From Catajapyx aquilonaris (taxonomy: Eukaryota), in NCBI GenBank assembly GCA_000934665.2, contig JYFJ02002320.1, positions 1 to 60,536 on the forward strand: 60,536 bases of DNA, read 5' to 3'. Shown piece after piece: positions 3,150 through 54,096 of the stretch (positions are counted from its first letter, which is position 1; every line of letters begins with the position of its first letter). The position numbers and the translations under genes are program-made. The notes below the pieces were generated by a model. The model was not told the DNA's origin, made no database searches, and saw only the letters and a list, made by a program, of their open reading frames with translations.

Positions 3150-3400
3150 CATATGAACCGCCATTTTTAAACAGCGTTGCCAACCTCAAGGCCATTTCCA
3201 CATTTTTGTTGTCAAAATTTAAATAGCTTTAAAGGAGATATAGAAAGCTAAATAGATTTAAACCTGCAGTTAATTGTGATGTAATAATAAACGTGATTAA
3301 ATATTAAATTGGGTTCAGATTGGAAACGACAGTTCATTCACATGGCAGTGGCAGCAATGCACCCCCCTGAATGGACAAGATGGCCGCCGTTTGTTCGTTC
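3150..3400. promoter_or_regulatory. Putative promoter of the zinc-finger gene at 3521 (YY1-like and Motif-1-like sites)
   Basis: CAAGATGGCCGCC at about 3376 and CCGCCATTTT at about 3159 (YY1/Pho consensus). CAGCGTTGCCAA at about 3171 (reverse TTGGCAACGCTG). Confidence 0.5.
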
Positions 3401-3520: not shown

Positions 3521-5930
3521 ATGGATTCGGAAGGGGACGGAATTGCAAAGTTCAACAAGATCCTTCTGGACAAGCTAATGGAGCAAGGATCTGAGCTCAA
3601 TTCGAACTTGGCGTCCAGGATGGACATGGTGATGGCCAAGCTGGACGAGGCTGAAGAGAGACTGGTGACCAAGATGGAGGAGATGGAAGAGAGGCTGTTG
3701 GGCCACATGAAACGCCACGTGGCCGTGACCGAGGCAAGCATCGTCTGCAGGATTGATCAAGTGGAGAGACGCATGGCCAACATGATTGAGGAGGTGGAGA
3801 AGAGGGTCATCGACACGCTCGAGCGGATCAGGCCTCATCAGGGAAAAGGTGACTCCTGTCGTTACATGTACGAGTAGTAATTAACACCAGATAATGCCTT
3901 CGACTGTCTTAACATGCGTTGAAAGAAAAATAAGCTTATACGTAGCAGGGTATATAAACAAACAAACACATACGTACCAAGCCTTATTGCCCCATGGACC
4001 TATGATGAATTTGTTGCAGAACGAACATTATTGTGGCTTTGTCAACCGTGTACCTTAGCTATACTTAGGTGGCCCAAGGTAAGACTGCATGGCCAAGTGG
4101 GTCTTTAAAATTTATTGGCAAAACCTCAATAACGCTCGTTGGCCTGCAGCGCCACAATAATGCTCGTTGGCCTGCAGCGCCACACTAATGTCCGTTGGCC
4201 TGCAGCGCCACACTAATGTCCGTTGACCTGCAGCGCCACAATAATGTTCGTTGGCCTGCAGCGCCACACCAATGCTCGTTGGCCTGCAGCGCCACACTAA
4301 TGCTCGTTGGCCTGCAGCGCCACACTAATGTCATTTGGCCTGCAGTGCCACACTAATGTTCATTGGCCTGCAGCGCCACAATAACGTTCGTTGGCCTGCA
4401 GCGCCACAATAAGACTTAATCTTTTATTGTCATTTCAGCTTGTTACATTGTTGGCGAAGCCATTCCTGGAAATGCGGATCAGCAAAATGGAGCAGAGATG
4501 CCAAGAAAGGTCAGACGTACGGATGATGATCCCAGAGAAGTGAAAGTAAAACAACGGCTGAATACGAAGGGTAAGAAAATGTTCCTGCAACCTGAAACAA
4601 AATGGAAATTATGCTACATATTTTGATCTCAAGCCACTTATTCTTTACGAAATCGTGGTTCATTTCTCAGAAACTGAAGGTCAGGAAGTGCTGTTAGTAC
4701 AAGAGACCAATGAAGATCAGTCGACAGCAGGAACAGATCCAATTGTTGCTGAAATTACTGTGGATGAGCAAAAGGAAGTAGTTGAAGAGGGAATGGTCGT
4801 AGATGAGGATGGACAATGGAATCAGCAGACGTGCGAAGAAATAACGTTGTTTGTGGATTCATCAGGTGATTTGCACGTACCTAACCGACCTAAACAGGAC
4901 CTTAGTTTGTTCTTTAACGGCCATACTTTTCTGCAGCGAAACCAGAAGCCATCTCACCTGATCGGGAAACCATCACAGTGAAGGCGGAAGCTGAAGACGA
5001 AGCGGAAATTGATATTGAAGAAACCTGGATGCTACCGATCAAGGAAGAATCGCATTTGAATTCAACAGGCGATGACTTGGATCACGAGTATTCAGCCAGA
5101 GGTTTGCATACGCTTCCTTTATTCCCTAAAATTTAAACGTGTTGTCGTAACAACACTTACTATGCCAAGTAATTATTCGTTTTAATTTACCTTTTCTTAA
5201 ACCAGTAACGGACAGTATGAAGACAGCCGTTAAAACCTATGCGGCTGCATCGTCAAAGAGTATCCGACAAATAATTTTTCCAGTGTCTGCTGATAGTGGA
5301 TTTAATGAGGAGAAACTGGTGAATACGGGAGTTGACGAGTCTGCTCGTGACGTACAACCTTGGAAAATATTGTTGAAGGAAGAGACGCCAGATGTGGATT
5401 CAGATGACTTGAACGTGCAACAAGATGCTGCGGAAGAGGAGGAGATTCTATCGCTGCCATCGGATGTCACCAGAGCGGCTCAACGTAACTCTGGCGGTTC
5501 AACCAGTGAAAAGTCAGCCGTGGAAAACAAGAGTTTGTATATGCCTTCCGGTGGGAAACTTTTTATGTGCAATATTTGCAGTGTGTCCTTCGCCCGTTTG
5601 GTGGACCTATCGAATCACAGAGTGACGCATACTTCTAGTGATCTGTTTAAATGCACGAGGTGCAACAAGACATTTCAACGGAAGCACCAATTAGCCGTGC
5701 ACGTCAAGCAGATGCACGCAAAGGACAAGCCGTTCGCGTGCGGACACTGTGGATTGCACTATTCTCACCGCGAGAGTTTCCAGGTCCACATGATGACCCA
5801 CACTTGGCAGAAACCGTTCACTTGCAGACTCTGCTTGGAAGCCTTCCCTAATCACAAGGCGGTTCAAACCCACATGAAGACTCACGCGTCCGGCAAATCG
5901 GGTAAAATCCATCATAAAAAGAGGGTTTGA
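3521..5930 (+). CDS. C2H2 zinc-finger protein (4 fingers) with an N-terminal hendecad coiled coil and acidic linker
   Basis: Exons at about 3521-3848, 4439-4570, 4671-4866, 4937-5101 and 5284 (or 5206)-5930, all joined in phase 1. Fingers CNIC, CTRC, CGHC and CRLC with HxxxH(x) and KPF-type linkers. Confidence 0.85.
4015..4412. repeat. 28-bp tandem array (about 10 copies) with an inverted partial unit on the left
   Basis: Unit ggcctgcagcgccaca(a/c)taatgctcgtt from about 4130-4412. The stretch aacgaacattattgtggc at about 4020 is its reverse complement. Related gccacaataacgttcgttgg copies lie at 38595-38900. Confidence 0.9.
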
Positions 5931-6958: not shown

Positions 6959-8030
6959 ATGTCTGCTGCCCAGGAGACACCTCCAGCTGATGAAGGTAAC
7001 GGGATGACATGAAAGAGACGCAACCAATTTTGTGGAGAGAGAACAATCAATATTAATTAATTATAATTAAATTAATGTTATAATTAGAAGAAGAAAAAAT
7101 AATGTAGGTTGTGTTTCAGCTGTGAAGGAGGCTTCAAAGCGGATGAAGAACGAATCGGTGGGACTGGAGGAGAAACGAGAAGCAACGTTACGAGAGGCAG
7201 AAGCTCAGATGGAAATTGAAGTACAATGCCGTACTGAGAAACACGGTACGGAGCAAGACTGTACAAAGCAAGTATGTACGAAGCAAGACTGTACAAAGCA
7301 AGTATGTACGAAGCAAGACTGTACAGAGTACGACCGTACTGAGCAACAACATACTGAGTATGACCGTACTGAGCAAGATAGGACGAAGCAACAACATACT
7401 GAACAAGACAGTACGGAGCAAGACCATCCTGCAACAAGTGCTGATGGTTGCATGATATGTCTCTTTTGCTGCAAGACTTTTACGACCCTGGATAGCCTGG
7501 CGCACCATCAAAAAATCCACACGGGACCCAGACCTTTCAGTTGCGAGTACTGCAACAGAGCGTTTGCGCACAGCTGCTCGATGCTGAGCCACAGACGTAC
7601 GCACACCAGAGAAAAGCAGTACAAATGCAGGTATTGCACGCAGTCGTTTCGGTGCGAGACGGACTTGAACGATCATGCCAAGTCGCACAGTGTGGATAAG
7701 CCCTTCACGTGCGAGTTTTGCGAGAAGACTTTTGCGCACAACTCTCACTTGGTGCGACACACCAAGACGCACACGGGGGAGAAGCCTTTTGTCTGCAGGG
7801 TGTGCCAGAAGTCCTTTCCCGAGCAAGGCAACCTGGTTTCGCATATGAGGACGCACACTGGGGAGAGGCCCTTTGCATGCGAGTTTTGCAACAAGTCGTT
7901 TTCGCAGAGCTCGCACCTCGCGAAACACAAGAGGACGCACACTGGCGAAAGACCTTTCACCTGCGATGCGTGTAACAAGTCGTTTTCTACTCGCACCACC
8001 TGGAAATCCCACGCCGCAACGCATAAGTAG
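6959..8030 (+). CDS. C2H2 zinc-finger protein (7 fingers) with pentapeptide repeats
   Basis: Exon 1 at 6959-6995 (MSAAQETPPADE, phase 1) splices to 7120-8030. Seven CxxC..HxxxH fingers with TGE(K/R)PF linkers; TKQDC/TKQVC/TEQDR repeats precede them. Confidence 0.9.
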
Positions 8031-8198
8031 CAATTAATCGAACCATTACGTACACGGCAAGCGTATTTTTAATTGTTGGTTTAATCTGTACATATACCGA
8101 CACAGTAATGGCACCATTGGAAAGCTAATTTTGTGGACTTTCCAAATTCAGTAATAGATTCTCAAATAAAATGTATGTGTATTTTTTATTTTTAACTA

Positions 8199-8989
8199 TT
8201 AAAGAACGTGCAGTTGCATCGTAGTCTCGACTTCCAATTTTCCAACCGGAACCAGCTGGCAAGTCCAGATTCCGCCGTCCTTTTCCTCGACAGCTTCGAT
8301 CCGAACTCCGCAGTATCCCTCCCTGTTCGACCCAACTTGTGCGAATCCCTCAGGAGATCCGACTATCGCATCGTCTTGTATCCGAACTAGTTGGCCGTCA
8401 GGTCCGGTTAAAGTGCAGAGAAACAGTGGCGACGTTATGCGGCATAGGATTGTGGCTGAGGAACCCGCCGTGGAGAACACGTGATCCGTCACGTCGTACC
8501 ATTCTCCTGGACGGTCGACAGGTGCTGCGGATACTAATTATTAGGATCTGAAGGCGATACGTACAAAACGTACTTACTGTAGACATGCAGTTGAATCGTA
8601 GTTTCGATGCGGAGTTTGCCTAACGGTGTAGCCATACACGACCAGTTTCCATTGTCCTTTTCCGACACTTGTTCAATCTGGACTCCGCATTTCCCCTGGT
8701 TCATCCGGCCGACTTGTCTGTATCCTTCAGGCGGTGCGATTGGCACGTCTTGTTGAACTTCGAAGGCCTGTCCATGCGGTCCGTGTACGCTGCACACTAA
8801 CAGCGGCTCATCCACGTCACATGATATCGTAGCTGACTGGTGAGTCTCCACATGGAGTTCAGTCGTGGCTTGTCCTGCGGATATGAACACATCAGTTGGT
8901 CATACGGAAAGTACAACGACATACGTACCTGGACAAACTCTAAGTACAAGTACGGCCGTACAAATTGCTGCGAACGAAAAGGTCGACAT
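8199..8989 (-). CDS. Secreted protein with two tandem Ig-like domains
   Basis: Exons 8989-8929 (signal peptide MSTFSFAAICTAVLVLRVCP), 8874-8578 and 8524-8199. Each Ig exon has SATIxC..C.(V/L).GP.G..G.CGV.IE.V.EKD.G.W.C and ends ETT(I/M)QLHV. No transmembrane segment. Confidence 0.85.
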
Positions 8990-9501: not shown

Positions 9502-11033
9502 TCAATCCGTTGCCTTGTGCGATCTCACGTGATATGCCAAGTGGCATCGCTGCGTGAATGATTTCCCGCACTGGTTACATTCGAAGGGCTTTTCCCCAGT
9601 GTGCGTCCGCATGTGAATCACCAAATAGCTTCGTTCGGAAAATAGTCGTCCGCACTGTTCACACGTATGCGGCTTCTCCCGAGTGTGTGTCCGCATGTGC
9701 CGCGACATGTTGCTCTGATCAGTGTAAGCCTTCCCGCAGTGTTTGCATTCAAACGGCCTTTCCCCGGTATGCCGCCGGATATGAGCCGCCAAATCATGGC
9801 TCCTCCCAAATGACTTCCCGCACTGATTGCAACTTAGCATCTTCCCGCCAATGTGTGTCCACATGTGAGCCGCCAAGTTCCCGTTTGTCGCCGACGCTTT
9901 CCCGCATACAACGCACTTAAACGGTCTTTCCCCCGTGTGGATCCGCTTGTGCTTTATAATCTGGCTGGGTTTGTCGAATGACTTTGCGCATATATCGCAC
10001 TTGAACGGCTTTTCCCCATTGTGAACAGCGGATATGTGGCCAGCCAGTTCGGTCGACACGAATGAAACGTTGCATATCTTACACTTTCGCTTGAACAATC
10101 GCGGCTTACGGATAGGAGCAAGCGGATCTTGCACGTTATCCATGAGCGGATCTCGCACGTTATCCATGAGCGGATCTCGCACGTTATCCATGAGCGGATC
10201 TCGCACGTTATCCATGAGCGGATCTCGCACGTTATCCATGAGCGGATCTCGCACGTTATCCATGAGCGGATCTCGCACGTTATCCATGAGCGGATCTCGC
10301 ACGTTATCCATGAGCGGATCTCGCACGTTATCCATGAGCGGCGCTGACACTAACGGCTCCTCCGTCTTCACATCTATGTCGCAGTCTTGAATCGCAGCGT
10401 CGTCCGAATATCCCGACGCCTCAACTTCAACTTTGCAAAAGACAGCTTCCTGCCCATCGGACATGACTCCTGTCGTACATGAAGGTCCAGCTGTTGTGAC
10501 GGCATCAGGCGCTGTTTCCGTGGTGGTTACTGATGAGTCGCTCTTGATGGCGAGACACCGAAGCGCAGGAGGCTTCCGCTTTTGCTGGAAATGTCGAATA
10601 TGTACGTTATGAACGGTATTGCCACTTTGACTTTTATTACATGCCTGCGGAAAGACTGTGGGTACGGCATCTTCTCTGAGTCGGACGGTGGCCAATCCCG
10701 TCCGGTCGAAGCAATCCTCCGTGAAGTGCTCGCAGCAGATGTGTATCACCTTAGGCGGACCCGGCGGGCCCTTCCAATCCTCCCTCCGGACGGCACGTAT
10801 CCACAGGTTCCTCCTCTCAGGATTCTTGGGGAACCTGTGCCCATCATTAGTCGCAACATCAGTCACGACATGCCAAAAATAATTAAATCATGCTCATACC
10901 AACTGTAGTAAGTCAAATGGTAGGTACTACAACATACTGTACATCATAATGGTACTCACAAGTGGTACGTAATTTTCTTGGCATACTTTTTGTTCGATCT
11001 GTTTGTGCAACCCACTGCTGCACACAGAACCAT
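9502..11033 (-). CDS. THAP-domain plus 7 C2H2 zinc-finger transcription factor
   Basis: Exon 1 at 11033-10960 (MVLCAAVGCTN..) splices to 10834 (FPKNPERRNLWI..CCEHF..AVPTVF), giving the THAP signature C2CH, P, W and AVPTxF. Seven C-terminal C2H2 fingers. Confidence 0.92.
10121..10341 (-). repeat. Coding 24-bp minisatellite (PLMDNVRD x9)
   Basis: Near-perfect repeats of gagcggatctcgcacgttatccat, in frame within the THAP-ZnF linker. Confidence 0.95.
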
Positions 11034-20453: not shown

Positions 20454-21668
20454 TCACACTGTCGTCTCGTGTTTGGAGTCCGGATCCGCATCCTTCTGCG
20501 CGTGATCCTCGACGCAGAGGGCCGTCTCGTCCTCGGCCGATCCTCGCTGCGACATCTTGGGGCTTCCGCACTTCTTCTTCGGCTTCGGCTTCTTCACTGG
20601 GGTCCGGCAGGGGCTCGTCTTCTTGCCCGCTCCGAAATACTGGGAGGTTCTAACGCTGGATACGAAAAGGAAAAAAATATGTGTTACGCACGCTCACAAT
20701 TAATTTTCTTATTAAAAATTATTTTTCTTATTAAAAATTATTTTTCTTATTAAAAATGATTTTTCTTATAAATAATTATTATAAGAAACAATAAGTGATT
20801 GGACAATTATAAAAAAATTCTTATTGGAAACAATCAGTGATTGGACAATTATTTAAAAATATATTATAAGAAACAATAAGTGATTGGAAAATCATGAAAA
20901 TTATACCGTAATGATTTTTATATATTTTCTTAACAATGTTTCATAATATTGTCCTATCGATTTGTCTTAATACCTATTTTTCTTTAGGAAAATTATATTT
21001 AGTAAGTTATTAGTTGTCATCATTTATTCTCTTTTCCTTATATTACGTAATTCAGCCTGAACAATTATTTACATTTCGACCAGCTTCCCTTGCAGCTTGC
21101 AGAAGGCCTCGTAGTCCCTGGCGCCGAACTCCTGAGGGTCGTACCGGGCGAGCTCGTACAGATCGCAGTACTCGTTAACGACCCGTTGCTCCTGCCCGCT
21201 CAGCAGTCCTCCGAAGACGTAGTTGACCAGGAAGGACCGGAGAGGCTCGTACGAATGCCGGATCATGGTTTGGTCCATCTCTGATATCTCCCGCTCTGTT
21301 GGGAACGCACAGTGTGAGTACCTACCAAATTACGGGGAATGTGCAGAGAGAGTACCTAGCAATTTGCTGCTGTCCACGGCCTTCATCTTGTAGTGATGGA
21401 CGTGCACGGCCTCGTTCATCTCCTCGTTGGTGCGGATGAGTGTGGGCTCGTACTGTATCTTGGGCACGGCCTCGATCATCTTGTCTATCTCCCGTCGCAT
21501 CGACCTTCTGCAGTCGTGTCCGATGGGCACGTGAGGACCTCTTCTAGATCCCCTCAGGGCGAATCGCATGATCTGTCGCTTGGCGAACACGAACAGGAGG
21601 ATGAAGGTGAGGACCCCGCCGCCTATGAACAGCACCACGGTCACACCGGACAGCTGCTCGGCCATCAT
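20454..21668 (-). CDS. C1orf43: NICE-3 / C1orf43 family protein
   Basis: MAEQLSGVTVVLFIGGGVLTFILLFVFAKRQIMRFAL..RRGPHVPIGH is characteristic of NICE-3. Exons about 21668-21357, 21295-21073 and 20656-20454. The C-terminus ETTV* is PDZ-ligand-like. Confidence 0.9.
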
Positions 21669-22304
21669 CTGAGTCCTAATTGAGCCCCCTTAGGCCCACT
21701 AATTAGCACGGGAATTAATTAAATAAGTTGGGAGAAGACATTTTAGGTTAATTAAAGGTGGGAGCCGCCATCTTGGGATCAGGGTTGCCAGACCGTGGCA
21801 TATGTACGGGGTTGCCAGATGACAAATAAATGCTACAAAATGGAACGTTAAGTGTGGATATAATTACTGTAATTACACTAAATATAATTACTAATTATAT
21901 GTAATATTATAATTTTAAAAGAACCGCAGATGAAATACTGGCGGCGTTCGAATAGCCGAACATGACGATTGCGTCATCAGAATTACTTGATTGCTCACTA
22001 CTTATTAATTAGTTTTAAAAAATAATTAATTAACACCCTGTAATTTGTATGTACCGGTTTGTACGTTAATTGCTTTTAAAATTGACATGATTGCGGCCGA
22101 TTTCGGACGCGCCTCGGATAATCCAACATGGCCGCCGAATTGTGATTGAGAAATCGTTCGATTTTTATTTCTGATCGCTTCCCCCTATTGGGAAATAATA
22201 TTGTATTGATACGCGGCTGTCGTCTTGGCCCCTCTCAAAAAATGTGTGGACGTTTGCCCCCAGTGAGGACGTAAAAAGAAGGACAGCCTCGGAACAGTGC
22301 AAGG
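21669..22304. promoter_or_regulatory. Bidirectional promoter NICE-3 / JAK, with a probable non-coding first JAK exon
   Basis: GCCGCCATCTTG (about 21764), two GGGTTGCCAGA (about 21782, 21809) and AACATGGCCGCC (about 22125). Donor AAGG|gtgagt at 22304/22305. Confidence 0.55.
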
Positions 22305-30693: not shown

Positions 30694-31817
30694 CTTTCCC
30701 TCTCGATTCAGGACGCACAGGGAAGAGCCTGATGAAGCGGACACGAAGAAGGAATTTGTCAGAAATACATAGAATAATAAATACCCAAGTAGCACGAATA
30801 GCCCTGGAATATCCCATGGATATCCACTGAATCGCCACTGGATATTTGGATATCCATGGGATATTCCAGGGTGATTCGTGCTACTTGGGTAAGAAGTACT
30901 TAAATAGTTATTTAGTTTTTATCAGTTTTATTACAGTTATTATATCATTAGTTTATTATGGTTATTAGTTCACTGATTATCTATTAATTGTTATTATTAG
31001 GTATTAATCATAATTAATAACTTCACTGTAAGGCTGAGGGACGTTCCATTCACATTCTGATAGTCTTAAGCCCGTTCCTGTTGACATGAACTTACACGGT
31101 TTTTTCTTTTTGACGTGGAGACGTTCACGTCAGTTGCGTCAACTATGTGGAATTATTTTTCTTCGTTTTGAGCTCTATTAATTATTAAATTAATTTTTCT
31201 TTTTCCTCTCCAAATTTTTCACAGCGTCACGGACGCCGCCATCTTGGAAATCGAACGTCAGCATTAAATTTTTTTTCCAGTGAAAGTTCAACCAATTGTA
31301 TTTTAATCGTTCATAATTATGATATAGTAATGTTACTAAAAGTAATTAAATAAATTTTTAGTGTTTAAATGTCATTAGTTGTAAAAATGTGCTGATTAAT
31401 GATTCGGCCCTAAAATGTAGCTATGCACGTAACGGCTACATTAGCTATTGATGCTGTCCCAGTTAATTTTTTTAAAACACAAAGCTTCTGTATGTAATTT
31501 CATAATTTAAATAATGTAATTTTTTTGGAGCTTCCAACCGTTTCTTATGGCGTGTGTTTTTGCGCACTTATGGCGAGTCAATTACTTTTAGAGTATTAAT
31601 CCAGCGGACATGTTTGCTGTGTTTGCTACATGTAACTAATACTCGCAGTGTGATAGCCAGTTACTCTTTTCTTAATCTGGCAACCCTTGAACCCGGCCCC
31701 TCTCTCTCCTTCACCTGGCCACCCTGTCCGGCCATTACACAGCTTCTTTTTCTCCGAGTGTCGTTCCAAGCCGAAGAAAGTTTTCCTCTCCAGACAAAAG
31801 CCACAGGAAGAACAACA
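30694..31817. promoter_or_regulatory. Divergent promoter region NGLY1 / PSMA4
   Basis: Head-to-head ATGs about 1.1 kb apart. GCCGCCATCTTGG (YY1-like) at about 31235. Confidence 0.5.
30784..30889. mobile_element. Palindromic MITE (106 bp, CCC/GGG termini, TA flanks)
   Basis: cccaagtagcacgaat..ccctggaatatcccatggatatcca is inverted against tggatatccatgggatattccaggg..attcgtgctacttggg. Degenerate relatives lie at about 27600-27640 and 28258-28310. Confidence 0.8.
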
Positions 31818-40040: not shown

Positions 40041-41130
40041 AATTGCATTTTCCACATTTTGTTGATTTGTACAGGGAGCAACATAAGAGGCGCAAACTTC
40101 TGTCGGCGCCTTTGATGTCCGCGTCTCTCTGTTTGGGGCCGTTGCCAAGGCTGGCGGCCATTTTGAAATGTGGGCAACGTCAACGAGGTATAAATATAGG
40201 GTACAGGCAAAAATAGGGTCCGCCATCTTTGATATGGTTTTGGCGGCCATGGCAACTACGCGGCAAAGAACACGCGCGAATCAAAGATGGCGGACCCTAT
40301 TTTTGCCTGTACCCTATTTATACCTCGTTGGCGTTGCCCCCACTTCAAAATGGGTGGCAACGCCCCAAACAGAGAGACGCGAAAATCGAATGTTTGCGCC
40401 TCTTATGTGTGGCAACGCCCCAAACAGAGAGACGCGGAAATCGAATGTTTACGCCTCTTATGTTTTGGCGGCCACGGCAACTACACGGCGAAGAACACGC
40501 GCGAATCAAAGATGGCGGACCCTATTTTTGCCTGTACCCCTATTTATACCTCGTTGATGGCGTTGCCCCCACTTCAAAATGTGTGGCGTCGCCCCAAACA
40601 GAGAGACGCGGAAATCGAATGTTTACGCCTCTTATGTTTTGGCGGCCATGGCAACTACATGGCAAAGAACACGCGCGAATCAAAGATGGCGGACCCTATT
40701 TTTGCCTGTACCCTATTTATACCTCGTCGTTGGCGTTGCCCCCACTTCAAAATGGGTGGCAACGCCCCCAAACAGAGAGACGCGGAAATCGAATGTTTGC
40801 GCCTCTTATGTGTGGCAACGCCCCAAACAGAGAGACGCGGAAATCGAATGTTTGTGCCTCGTCTTATGTTTTGGCGGCCTTGACAACTACACGGCAAAGA
40901 ACACGCGCGAATCAAAGATGGCGGACCCCATTTTTGCCTGTACCCTATTTATACCTCGTCGTTGGCGTTGCCCCCACTTCAAAATGGGTGGCAACGCCCC
41001 CAAACAGAGAGACGCGGAAATCGAATGCTTGCGCCTCTTATGTAGTATATATTTTTGTTGATGTGTATGAGCAACGTCAAATTTTGACGTTGCTCATACA
41101 AATCAACAAAAATGTGGAACATGCAATATT
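40041..41130. mobile_element. Foldback-like element: one inverted unit plus four direct units of about 175-230 bp, with terminal inverted repeats
   Basis: 40041-40233 is the reverse complement of the unit atcaaagatggcggaccctatttttgcctgtaccc..tggcaacgccccaaacagagagacgcgg (direct copies at about 40280, 40505, 40679 and 40911). Ends ttccacatttttgttgatttgta / tacaaatcaacaaaaatgtggaa. Confidence 0.85.
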
Positions 41131-41472
41131 TAAAAAAAAAAATTCATCAATAATCCTGCTAATATCTGGCTGTACTGTACGGTAATTACCATGTAGTACA
41201 TAAGATCAGTGCAATTAGTCAACACTCTAAATTAAATAATTAAATCGTTCAAATTTTTTTTCTCCCGCCTTGTTATTAATAAATTCAGAACAGTTCCTGA
41301 GAACAGCGGCAGGAACGCGCCCTTGATAAAATTTTCAAGATGGCCGTCGATTCATCTCGTTTTGGTCATGTCAACCACATTTTAACTTGATTTAATCCCA
41401 ATTAAAATAAATAGTGGAAGGTTTTAACAGCAGGGGTTTGTACTGACAGTGAGTGTGTACTGAGGGAAAAGG

Positions 41473-42558
41473 ATGGATTCGGGTGAGGTGACCCTAGGGA
41501 AGATGATGGAGACGTTTGCAGGGAGCAAGAGTCTCCTGGAGAGGATAGTCCTTCAAGGGGAGAAGATGGAGGAGAGGATGGTGGCCAGGATGGAAGCCTT
41601 CGAGGGACGGATGGTGGCCAGGATGGAGGCCGTCGAGGAGAGGATGGTGGCCAGGATGGAGGCCATCGAGAAGAGGATGGTGGCCGCCATGGAGGAGCTC
41701 ATGGGGAGACAAGAAGGCAAGCCGTGGGTCGCTGAAGGAAATCAGGAAATCAATCAAATCGTAACATGCAATTACAGGTACATCGCAAGTACAGAAGGTG
41801 CAGGATAAGAAGGCGCTACGGTGCGGCGTATGCAACGCGACGTTTCGACGAGCGTCCGCGATGGAAGCTTGTATGAAGAGCCATGCGGTTAAAGACAACG
41901 AGGACAAGAGCAATGAAGTCGCAGGTACGTACATGCGCAATTGCGTACTTGTTAACTGCACGTTTTTCATACACTAGGAGCGGCGGCGTCTCCGCAAGAA
42001 ACACCGCCGGTACGTGACGATCCCCCGCAATTGCACGCCGGCGACGAAGAGATGCTGGTGACGACCCCCGACATCGCGACGGACCAATCCGAACCGTTAG
42101 ACGAAGAGTACCACAGGTACTGGGCCAAAAAGCGGGGTCCGTTCATATGCGACTTTTGCAACAAAGTGTTCAAGTTCAACTGCGATCTCGTCCGGCACCG
42201 CAAGTACCACACGGGCGAGAAGACTCATCAGTGCAAAGTTTGCGGGAAGTTCTTTGTGCGTCCGTCCGATTTGACCAGCCACTTTAAGATTCACACTGGC
42301 GAGAAGCCATTTAGATGTCAGATATGCCATAGATGTTTTTCGCATCACAACAGCTTGAAGATTCATACTCGAGCGCATACGGGGGAGAAGCCGTACACGT
42401 GCGAGACATGCGGGAAGTCGGTCGCTTCCATGAACTCGTTAAAGACGCATCGGCTGATACACACTGGGGAGAAACCTTTCATTTGCGAAGTGTGCGGAAA
42501 GTCGTTTACTAAAAAGAATACTTGGAAAGTTCATATGAAGAGGCATACTGCGGAGTAA
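41473..42558 (+). CDS. C2H2 zinc-finger protein (5 fingers plus 1 degenerate) with an N-terminal hendecad coiled coil
   Basis: Exons 41473-41716 (GC donor), 41778-41925 and 41979-42558. Four EERMVARMEA(F/V/I)-type repeats; fingers with TGEKP(F/Y) linkers. Confidence 0.88.
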
Positions 42559-46027: not shown

Positions 46028-46982
46028 TTTCGAAGCAGGTACGACGGTGAGGTATACACGAACGACGACAACGATGTTTTCCCTTCCCGGGATGTTCAAC
46101 TCTTTAGTTGTTCGAAGACCATGATGTCATCATCCAAAGTATCGATATCCCCCCACGATTAATCGACATATCATTATCGACCTAGCCTTTGTAGCAAACC
46201 ACTGACACACATTAATATTGGTGCTCATTTAAAAAGAGTGGGCTGACCTTTCACCTGTGGGGGTCATCAGTTTAACCTGGTTTAACCCTTGTGTAACGCA
46301 GGGTATGAATCCAATTATCGATACATTGCGAAGAAAAAAAACAATCGAAATGGATGACTCATACACTGTTGCCATATGTACATGCGGCAGGTGTAATTCA
46401 GCAATGTGGCAACGCAGCATGTGTTTACAACCCAAATTTTGTACTCGCACCTAGTTTATAATTAACGGCTAATTACACCCATAATTGTTTAACCGCTAAT
46501 TACGCCAATTGCGACAATTCGAACGCGCAGAAAAAGTCGACGCAAGTTACGCACTCGACATAAATGGAGTTAACATCCACGTTAAAATTGCAGCCCTGAT
46601 TTTACATATTTGGTAATTGCAGTATGCCTGGATTAATTATAGTGCAATTGTCATAAGTAGTTGCGTTGACTTGTGCAACTTCCGGTCCTGATGCTTTCCG
46701 CAGTAAAAAAAAAAAAGAACAAGGAAAAAAAAAAAAAAGAAGGATTTTTGTTCTTCAGTGTCCTTTTCTTTTTTTGTCCTCCCTACATTTGTTGTTCCCC
46801 GAACACGATCACCAAATGTTCGGCCGTGTTGGATCCTCCTCGGCCATCAGGTTCGTGCCCAGCTAGTCCCTCTCTCGAAGACACCACCACACTGAACTAT
46901 AGAAGAGGGGAAGGGGGGTCGTGCTGCTGCGAACCCTTTTATCAGTTCAGTAGATGACCAGAGAAGAAGAAGAAGGAAAAGG
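46028..46982. promoter_or_regulatory. Divergent promoter region Bax-like / Nedd4
   Basis: Head-to-head ATGs about 950 bp apart. ETS-like ACTTCCGGT at about 46678. Confidence 0.45.

Positions 46983-54096
<7,114 letters not shown>

What the first reader, a model, noticed from the sequence alone, without database searches (positions are those of the whole stretch)
3521..3848. Candidate new zinc-finger-associated N-terminal module: an 11-residue (hendecad) coiled coil shared by two distant C2H2 genes
Seen: this exon reads MDS..KILLDKLMEQG..EERLVTKMEEM-EERLLGHMKRH..EASIVCRIDQV-ERRMANMIEEV-EKRVIDTLERI. Exon 1 at 41473 reads MDS..KSLLERIVLQG..EERMVARMEAF-EGRMVARMEAV-EERMVARMEAI-EKRMVAAMEEL. Both are single phase-1 first exons downstream of a CAAGATGGCCG site, and both are joined to different finger arrays. 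Known: lineage-specific ZnF expansions carry dedicated N-terminal effector or dimerisation domains (KRAB, SCAN, ZAD, BTB). This module resembles none of them. Inference: a lineage-specific oligomerisation or effector domain defining an expanded ZnF family, possibly one that targets repeats.
Basis: partly seen in the sequence, partly recalled or inferred. Interest (0 to 1): 0.7.

Follow-up and report, generated by a model that had tools for sequence, protein, structure and literature searches.

The report
Shared helical N-terminus on two zinc-finger genes
Two zinc-finger genes 38 kb apart in a compact animal genome both begin with one long helix built on an 11-residue repeat that matches no described domain, but only these two copies could be found, so a new gene family remains unproven.

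Summary
Exon A (3521-3848) and exon B (from 41473) both start MDS. Both carry an [N/S]K-x-LL-[D/E]-[K/R] unit followed by hendecads with hydrophobic residues at positions 4, 5, 8 and 11. Both are predicted as one long helix (pLDDT 93.4 and 92.0). Open GT-AG gene models join both to C2H2 finger exons.

No Pfam family reaches its cutoff, and KRAB, SCAN, ZAD and BTB are absent.

Three points weaken the interpretation:
- Exon B's regularity is a young 33-bp DNA tandem repeat.
- A and B resemble each other in the repeat part no more than each resembles bacterial-type hendecad proteins, so that similarity is generic.
- The CAAGATGGCCG site also occurs, with one mismatch, upstream of two unrelated ORFs.

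I found no third copy in the window (2 of 4 C2H2 genes carry the module) or in the public protein and metagenome searches. No genome is held for this organism, and its lineage appears to be missing from those libraries. Family size is therefore untested.

Best reading: a real, lineage-restricted amphipathic helical N-terminal module of common origin. It probably acts as a self-association helix. Moderate to low interest until the genome is scanned.

The parts
3376..3386 (+). CAAGATGGCCG promoter-type motif, 145 nt upstream of the gene A ATG
   Evidence: Exact match. Across the window there are 7 sites with at most 1 mismatch against 0.8 expected. Two of them (21765 and 31236, minus strand) lie upstream of unrelated minus-strand ORFs, so the motif is probably a general promoter element.
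3521..3848 (+). Gene A exon 1: MDS start, then 8 hendecad units with a 4-residue skip (VAVT); ends in phase 1 at G|GTGACT
   Evidence: AF2 predicts one helix over residues 3-106 with pLDDT 93.4. No DNA tandem repeat lies in the exon.
4136..4412 (+). 28-bp minisatellite (9.9 copies) inside intron 1 of gene A
4439..4570 (+). Gene A exon 2 (model), basic stretch, phase 1-1
   Evidence: Open frame and GT-AG ends. No Pfam hit.
4671..4865 (+). Gene A exon 3 (model), acidic, phase 1-1
4937..5101 (+). Gene A exon 4 (model), acidic, phase 1-1
5206..5930 (+). Gene A last exon with the C2H2 fingers and the stop codon
   Evidence: zf-C2H2 at 53.6 bits against a cutoff of 25.2. RNA contig record 2 covers 5204-5694.
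41336..41346 (+). CAAGATGGCCG motif, 137 nt upstream of the gene B ATG
41473..41727 (+). Gene B exon 1: MDS start, then 5 hendecad units with a 4-residue skip (GEKM). It ends at 41727 (GT donor, phase 0) or at 41716 (GC donor, phase 1).
   Evidence: AF2 predicts one helix over residues 3-82 with pLDDT 92.0.
41569..41685 (+). 33-bp coding tandem repeat (3.5 copies, 90% matches) that makes up B's regular hendecads
41795..41924 (+). Gene B exon 2 (model; starts at 41778 in the GC-donor model), with one degenerate finger-like stretch
   Evidence: Open frame. Only a sub-threshold ZNF451-type hit at 17 bits.
41978..42558 (+). Gene B last exon with the C2H2 array and the stop codon
   Evidence: zf-C2H2 at 80.4 bits and zf-H2C2_2 at 100.4 bits.

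Best explanation
Both first exons are real coding exons. They encode the same kind of N-terminal module: an MDS start followed by one uninterrupted amphipathic alpha-helix of about 80-105 residues. The helix has a hydrophobic stripe that is rich in Met, Leu and Val and recurs every 11 residues (3.67 per turn).

The two modules most likely share an origin, through gene duplication or transfer of the 5' end, within a lineage-restricted group of C2H2 zinc-finger genes. In gene A the repeats are old and diverged. In gene B four units were regenerated recently by tandem duplication of a 33-bp unit.

Inferred and not shown: the helix lets the finger proteins pair with themselves or with each other along a straight, non-supercoiled hydrophobic seam. 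This is the role that ZAD, SCAN or BTB play in other lineages. Whether more than two genes carry the module is unknown.
For: Periodicity and helix:
- Lag-11 autocorrelation was reached by 0 of 2000 shuffles in both exons.
- A's hydrophobicity spectrum peaks at 3.67 residues, reached by 0 of 500 shuffles.
- The hydrophobic positions are conserved across units.
- AF2 predicts single helices over residues 3-106 (pLDDT 93.4) and 3-82 (pLDDT 92.0).

Shared features outside the repeat:
- The same ATGGATTCGG start.
- A first unit NKILLDKLMEQ in A against SKSLLERIVLQ in B.
- A 4-residue skip in each helix.
- A Q-(E)-G-K end just before the donor.
- The motif 145 and 137 nt upstream of the ATG.

Scores and rarity:
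- The whole-exon Smith-Waterman score is 100, against 35 +/- 6 for composition shuffles (0 of 2000 reach it).
- Only 55 of 1,835,955,588 library proteins match the profile at E <= 0.001.
- In the window, 2 of 1207 ORFs match it, and both are first exons of C2H2 genes. This comparison is partly circular, because the profile was built from these two exons.

Coding status:
- The spliced models are open, at 514 and 321 aa, with GT-AG introns of 53-590 nt. The RNA joints listed elsewhere in the window skip 53-965 nt.
- RNA contig record 2 (1102 nt) places its last 491 nt on 5204-5694. If the rest lies on exons 4, 3, 2 and the last ~121 nt of exon 1, the predicted bin depths are 0.86 and 3.53. The observed depths are 0.85 and 3.52.
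Against: - The repeat-part similarity is generic. A and B score up to 117 and 145 against unrelated bacterial-type hendecad proteins, but only 100 against each other.
- The non-repeat N-termini alone are only marginally alike: 257 of 5000 shuffles reach the observed score.
- Upstream DNA similarity is confined to a 17-nt block. It was reached by 20 of 1000 shuffles and by 3 of 264 real-sequence controls.
- The motif also sits upstream of unrelated ORFs.
- B's regularity is a young minisatellite. Coding minisatellites also occur in the two other finger genes of the window (7231-7424 and 10121-10341).
- B's hydrophobicity spectrum is not significant (227 of 500 shuffles).
- No third copy was found anywhere.
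- The exon 1 to exon 2 joint of A was not displayed. Depth in bin 4003-4669 is 2.91 against a predicted 0.94, so other contigs also lie there.
- Nothing was laid on gene B.
Confidence: 0.55

Rival explanations
1. Convergence through repeat expansion. The two exons are unrelated. In each, a short E/R/M-rich coding minisatellite expanded, as happens elsewhere in this genome. The 11-residue amphipathic pattern is simply what such repeats settle into. On this reading there is no domain and no dedicated function.
For: - B's units are a 33-bp DNA tandem repeat at 90% identity.
- A non-coding-looking 33-bp satellite lies at 47251-47462.
- Coding minisatellites of 15/30 bp and 24 bp sit in the two other finger genes.
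- The same hendecad pattern recurs in 55 unrelated, mostly bacterial-type proteins, at scores equal to or above the A-B score.
Against: - Exon A has no DNA-level repeat, yet it keeps the pattern over 8 diverged units.
- Shared features lie outside the repeat: the MDS start, the first unit, the Q-G-K end and the spacing of the motif.
- The class is very rare in the library, yet the window holds two, both at the same place in the same kind of gene.
Confidence: 0.2
2. The helix is a binding surface rather than a pairing device. It could be a flexible Met-rich amphipathic helix that docks a co-factor, or an apolipoprotein- or perilipin-like helix that binds a lipid or membrane surface.
For: - The only Pfam and PDB resemblances are to exchangeable apolipoproteins: PF01442 at 24.1 and 18.8 bits, and ApoA-I at E 0.5.
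- Met makes up 10 of 109 residues in A and 13 of 85 in B.
Against: - Both scores are far under threshold (cutoff 90 bits; E 0.5).
- The same sub-threshold apolipoprotein hit appears on most generic hendecad proteins, so it reflects periodicity and not kinship.
- The downstream context is C2H2 arrays and a basic stretch, which suggests a nuclear protein. This last point is inference.
Confidence: 0.12
3. Gene-model artefact. One or both MDS ORFs are not translated as part of the finger protein. They could be an upstream ORF, a separate small gene, or an alternative first exon.
For: - The joints for gene A were not displayed, and gene B has no RNA evidence at all.
- B's best GT donor (GTCGCT) is weak, and an alternative GC donor exists.
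Against: - Frames stay open through 5 and 3 exons with canonical sites.
- The depth arithmetic for A fits to within 0.01 in two bins.
- The predicted helices are highly confident.
Confidence: 0.08

Closest known systems
ZAD, SCAN, BTB/POZ and KRAB: the known N-terminal domains attached to C2H2 arrays
   Same: Position at the very N-terminus, encoded by the first exon. Sits upstream of a C2H2 array. Restricted taxonomic range. Its likely role is inferred to be pairing or effector recruitment.
   Different: No sequence match to any of them, even at E <= 10. The predicted fold is a single helix, not a globular domain. The four zinc-binding cysteines of ZAD (a feature recalled, not from a call) cannot be present, because A has 1 Cys and B has none (sequences). 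Only two genes are known to carry the module.
Prokaryote-type hendecad-repeat proteins (Pfam KID repeat PF02524; stalks of CCDC90-like PF07798)
   Same: An 11-residue unit with an acidic residue at position 1, a basic residue at 3 and 7, and hydrophobic residues at 4/5, 8 and 11. These are the best matches in 1.84 billion proteins. Their pairwise scores to A and B are as high as the A-B score.
   Different: They are small proteins, often membrane-anchored, and 0 of 55 have zinc fingers. A and B match neither PF02524 nor PF07798 at E <= 10. They also lack the MDS...LL..QG start (0 of 55).
Exchangeable apolipoproteins A-I/A-IV/E (PF01442), with 11/22-residue amphipathic helices
   Same: An 11-residue amphipathic periodicity. 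This is the top Pfam and PDB resemblance.
   Different: 24.1 and 18.8 bits against a cutoff of 90, and a best PDB E-value of 0.5. There is no proline within the helix of A (its only Pro is at residue 105). The protein context is a DNA-binding one.

Membership tests
C2H2 zinc-finger genes | zf-C2H2 (PF00096) above the gathering score in the same gene | tested here: met
   A's last exon scores 53.6 bits and B's last exon 80.4 bits, against a cutoff of 25.2. The link between exon 1 and the fingers is model-based. For A it also has indirect RNA support.
ZAD (PF07776), SCAN, BTB, KRAB | A Pfam match in the N-terminal exon | tested here: not met
   None of these is listed for either exon at E <= 10.
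Apolipoprotein A1/A4/E (PF01442) | Score at or above the gathering cutoff of 90 bits | tested here: not met
   24.1 and 18.8 bits. PDB ApoA-I reaches only E 0.5.
KID repeat (PF02524) / CCDC90-like (PF07798) | A Pfam match; for CCDC90-like, also a head domain and a C-terminal membrane anchor | tested here: not met
   Neither is listed at E <= 10. The exon holds nothing but one predicted helix.
Hendecad (11/3) helical repeat, as a structural class | A hydrophobic pattern recurring every 11 residues on a continuous helix | tested here: met
   Lag-11 autocorrelation was reached by 0 of 2000 shuffles in both exons. A's spectrum peaks at 3.67 residues. Single helices are predicted.
Hendecad coiled coil (an oligomer) | Two or more helices packed along the stripe | not testable with these tools
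   No usable result was obtained here. It needs SEC-MALS, AUC or a solved structure.
A new zinc-finger-associated domain family | Many C2H2 genes carrying the module | tested here: inconclusive
   2 of 4 C2H2 genes in the window carry it, and none was found elsewhere. However, no genome is held, and A's finger exon finds only 25-42% identical proteins. The lineage is therefore not sampled.

The most novel reading that the evidence does not exclude
The two genes are the visible tip of a lineage-specific family of C2H2 transcription factors. On this reading the family is defined by a Met-rich hendecad helix that forms straight or right-handed coiled coils and allows combinatorial homo- and hetero-oligomers. 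It would be a functional counterpart of ZAD, SCAN or KRAB that arose independently from a repeat, with helix length tuned by gain and loss of 33-bp units.
Probability: 0.2. Interest if true: 0.6.

Novelty: new variant of a known kind. Interest (0 to 1): 0.3.

Why it matters
Large zinc-finger families in different animal lineages each recruited their own N-terminal pairing or effector domain. A further, independently evolved one, built from a simple 11-residue repeat, would show how such domains can arise from coding minisatellites. It would also give a handle on an unannotated set of transcription factors. With only two copies seen and no functional data, the finding is for now a modest annotation: an undescribed helical N-terminus on two finger genes.

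Tried and rejected
- Earlier notes of this scan, by place, by sequence and by words: nothing relevant. The 'hendecad' notes all concern archaeal or bacterial rods.
- Word-indexed protein search, 'longer' lengths only, with exon A and with exon B: no hit at E <= 0.01. The HMMER library search has no length limit.
- ESM Atlas: the best scores were 0.85 for both exons, which is under the 0.9 lead level. One 93-aa unnamed cluster ranked first for A and second for B. One 85-aa arthropod cluster ranked first for B. These are leads only and could not be fetched.
- Metagenome contigs, searched with peptide patterns and with a degenerate DNA pattern: 480 pattern matches but 0 confirmed, and 0 matches respectively.
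- PDB by sequence: nothing below E 0.5.
- Complex prediction with 2 copies of exon A: no verdict, score 0.06 against a mark of 0.32, and the controls were not run. This is not evidence either way.
- The look-up of sequencing runs: no RNA holder is listed. The one run, X1, is of unrecorded kind, but its contigs carry GT..AG joints.
- Read laying: the tables were truncated (19 joints and 66 pieces not shown), so the gene A joints were not seen.
- Extended promoter homology between A and B: rejected, because only a 17-nt block is shared.
- Literature, from search listings and abstract starts only, with no paper opened: four searches found no hendecad or 11-residue N-terminal module of zinc-finger proteins. 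A fifth search on CCDC90B/MCUR1 gave nothing that I used.
- The fold search was not run, because a single helix gives no informative match.

Full report
What is there

The window is a gene-dense animal-type sequence of about 43% G+C. Pfam places these families on its ORFs:
- tyrosine kinase
- HECT
- proteasome subunit
- Bcl-2
- cyclin
- transglutaminase-like
- ion channel
- THAP

Contigs of the one public run that holds the stretch (X1) carry GT..AG or CT..AC joints that skip 53-965 nt. X1 is therefore RNA-derived, and introns here are short.

Each starts at the first in-frame ATG after a stop.

Is the pattern real?

Yes.
- Lag-11 autocorrelation of strong hydrophobic residues is 0.31 in A and 0.49 in B. 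It was reached by 0 of 2000 shuffles in each.
- A's hydrophobicity spectrum (residues 12-104) peaks at 3.67 residues per turn, reached by 0 of 500 shuffles.
- B's peak lies at 3.65 but is not significant on that scale, since 227 of 500 shuffles reach it.
- Set in register, A has 8 units and B has 5, and each helix has one 4-residue skip. Positions 4 and 8 are hydrophobic in 13 of 13 units, position 5 in 12 of 13, and position 11 in 9 of 13. Position 1 is acidic in 9 of 13, and positions 3 and 7 are basic in 8 of 13 each.
- AlphaFold2 models each exon as one continuous helix: residues 3-106 with pLDDT 93.4, and residues 3-82 with pLDDT 92.0.

Two different histories

B's regular units are a 33-bp DNA tandem repeat at 41569-41685, with 3.5 copies at 90% matches. 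They are therefore young. A has no DNA-level repeat in its exon, so its periodicity is kept at the protein level.

Coding minisatellites are common in this window. There is a 15/30-bp repeat in the finger gene at 7071-8030 and a 24-bp repeat in the THAP-finger gene. A 33-bp satellite also lies at 47251-47462.

Gene models

Model A has five exons: 3521-3848, 4439-4570, 4671-4865, 4937-5101 and 5206-5930. It is open, encodes 514 aa, and all of its introns are GT-AG and phase 1. The joints over A were among the rows not shown. Indirect support comes from contig record 2 (1102 nt), which ends on 5204-5694. Placing the rest of it on exons 4, 3, 2 and the last ~121 nt of exon 1 predicts bin depths of 0.86 and 3.53, against observed depths of 0.85 and 3.52. 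In bin 4003-4669 the observed depth (2.91) exceeds the prediction (0.94), so other contigs also lie there.

Model B has three exons: 41473-41727, 41795-41924 and 41978-42558. It is open and encodes 321 aa. An alternative with a GC donor at 41717 and an acceptor at 41777 is also open (323 aa) and would make every intron phase 1, as in A. No RNA was laid on B.

C2H2 domains are above cutoff in the last exon of both genes. The two finger regions are about 30% identical.

Are A and B related, or just alike?

Evidence that they are related:
- The whole-exon Smith-Waterman score is 100, against 35 +/- 6 for shuffles, and 0 of 2000 shuffles reach it.
- They share the ATGGATTCGG start.
- The first hendecad unit, the Q-(E)-G-K end and the motif spacing (145 and 137 nt) are alike.
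- In the window, the profile of the two exons hits only these two of 1207 ORFs; the next best has E 0.62.

Evidence that weakens this:
- The non-repeat N-termini alone are only marginal, with 257 of 5000 shuffles reaching the score.
- Upstream DNA shares only a 17-nt block, reached by 20 of 1000 shuffles and by 3 of 264 real-sequence controls.
- A and B score up to 117 and 145 against unrelated hendecad proteins from the library. The repeat similarity is therefore at the level of the class.

I weigh the rarity of that class (55 of 1.84 billion proteins at E <= 0.001) against two occurrences at the same place in the same kind of gene within 38 kb. On that basis I favour common origin. The argument is partly circular, because the profile was built from these two exons.

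The promoter motif

CAAGATGGCCG with at most 1 mismatch occurs 7 times in the window, against 0.8 expected. Two of these sites, at 21765 and 31236 on the minus strand, lie upstream of minus-strand ORFs that are not finger genes. The motif is probably a general promoter element. From recall, and not tested here, it resembles a YY1-type site. It is not a mark of this gene pair.

Search for a family

- Pfam: nothing reaches its cutoff, and KRAB, SCAN, ZAD and BTB are absent.
- Library of 1.84 billion representatives: 55 hits, of which 0 carry C2H2. By sequence they are small hendecad proteins, many with membrane anchors. Some match KID repeat or CCDC90-like, and most match Apolipoprotein below its threshold.
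- Word-indexed searches ('longer' lengths only), two metagenome scans, the Atlas and the PDB: no relatives.

These negatives are weak. No genome is held for this organism. A's finger exon finds only generic finger proteins at 25-42% identity, so this organism and its close kin are not in the protein library. In the window itself, 2 of 4 C2H2 genes carry the module.

Mechanism

Shown: an amphipathic helix with a straight 11/3 hydrophobic stripe sits ahead of an acidic and basic linker and the fingers.

Inferred: the stripe is buried by pairing with another copy or with a paralogue. That would make the module a dimerisation or oligomerisation device, as ZAD, SCAN and BTB are. The one complex job gave no verdict and is recorded only under Tried and rejected.

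The alternatives are a docking or lipid-type amphipathic helix, independent repeat expansion without function, and a gene-model artefact.

Verdict

This is a real, undescribed helical N-terminus shared by two finger genes. It belongs to no known zinc-finger-associated domain. Its repeat is of a generic, recurrent type, and the claim of an expanded family is untested. The decisive step is a scan of this organism's genome.

Noticed in passing
window 10121-10341 (minus-strand THAP + C2H2 gene, ORF 9502-10887): A 24-bp coding minisatellite (9.2 copies, 99% matches) encodes nine PLMDNVRD units between the THAP domain and the finger array.
   Followed up: partly
window 7231-7424 (C2H2 gene in ORF 7071-8030): A 15/30-bp coding repeat gives TEQD/CTKQ-type units ahead of seven or more fingers. 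This gene has no hendecad module.
   Followed up: partly
window 40087-41185: Tandem repeats of 174 and 232 bp lie directly upstream of gene B. Each unit holds a near-copy of the promoter-type motif (AAAGATGGCGG). Long ORFs in several frames here are repeat artefacts.
   Followed up: no
window 21765-21775 (-) and 31236-31246 (-): One-mismatch copies of CAAGATGGCCG lie upstream of minus-strand ORFs that are not finger genes (the ORF at 21330-21689, and the transglutaminase-like gene ending near 30918). This suggests a general promoter element.
   Followed up: partly
window 46850-48600: A block of 33-bp and 108-bp tandem repeats is open in up to six frames. It also shows 11-residue periodicity purely because of the DNA repeat.
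   Followed up: no
window 4380-4409: Two X1 contigs end in the intron 1 minisatellite and continue with 24 letters that partly resemble the start of gene A's last exon. This may be a paralogous transcript or a repeat-driven misjoin (table 7).
   Followed up: no
window 7296-8873: One X1 contig runs from the 3' part of the plus-strand finger gene into the spliced minus-strand gene at 8199-8899. The two genes therefore abut or overlap at their 3' ends (record 3).
   Followed up: no
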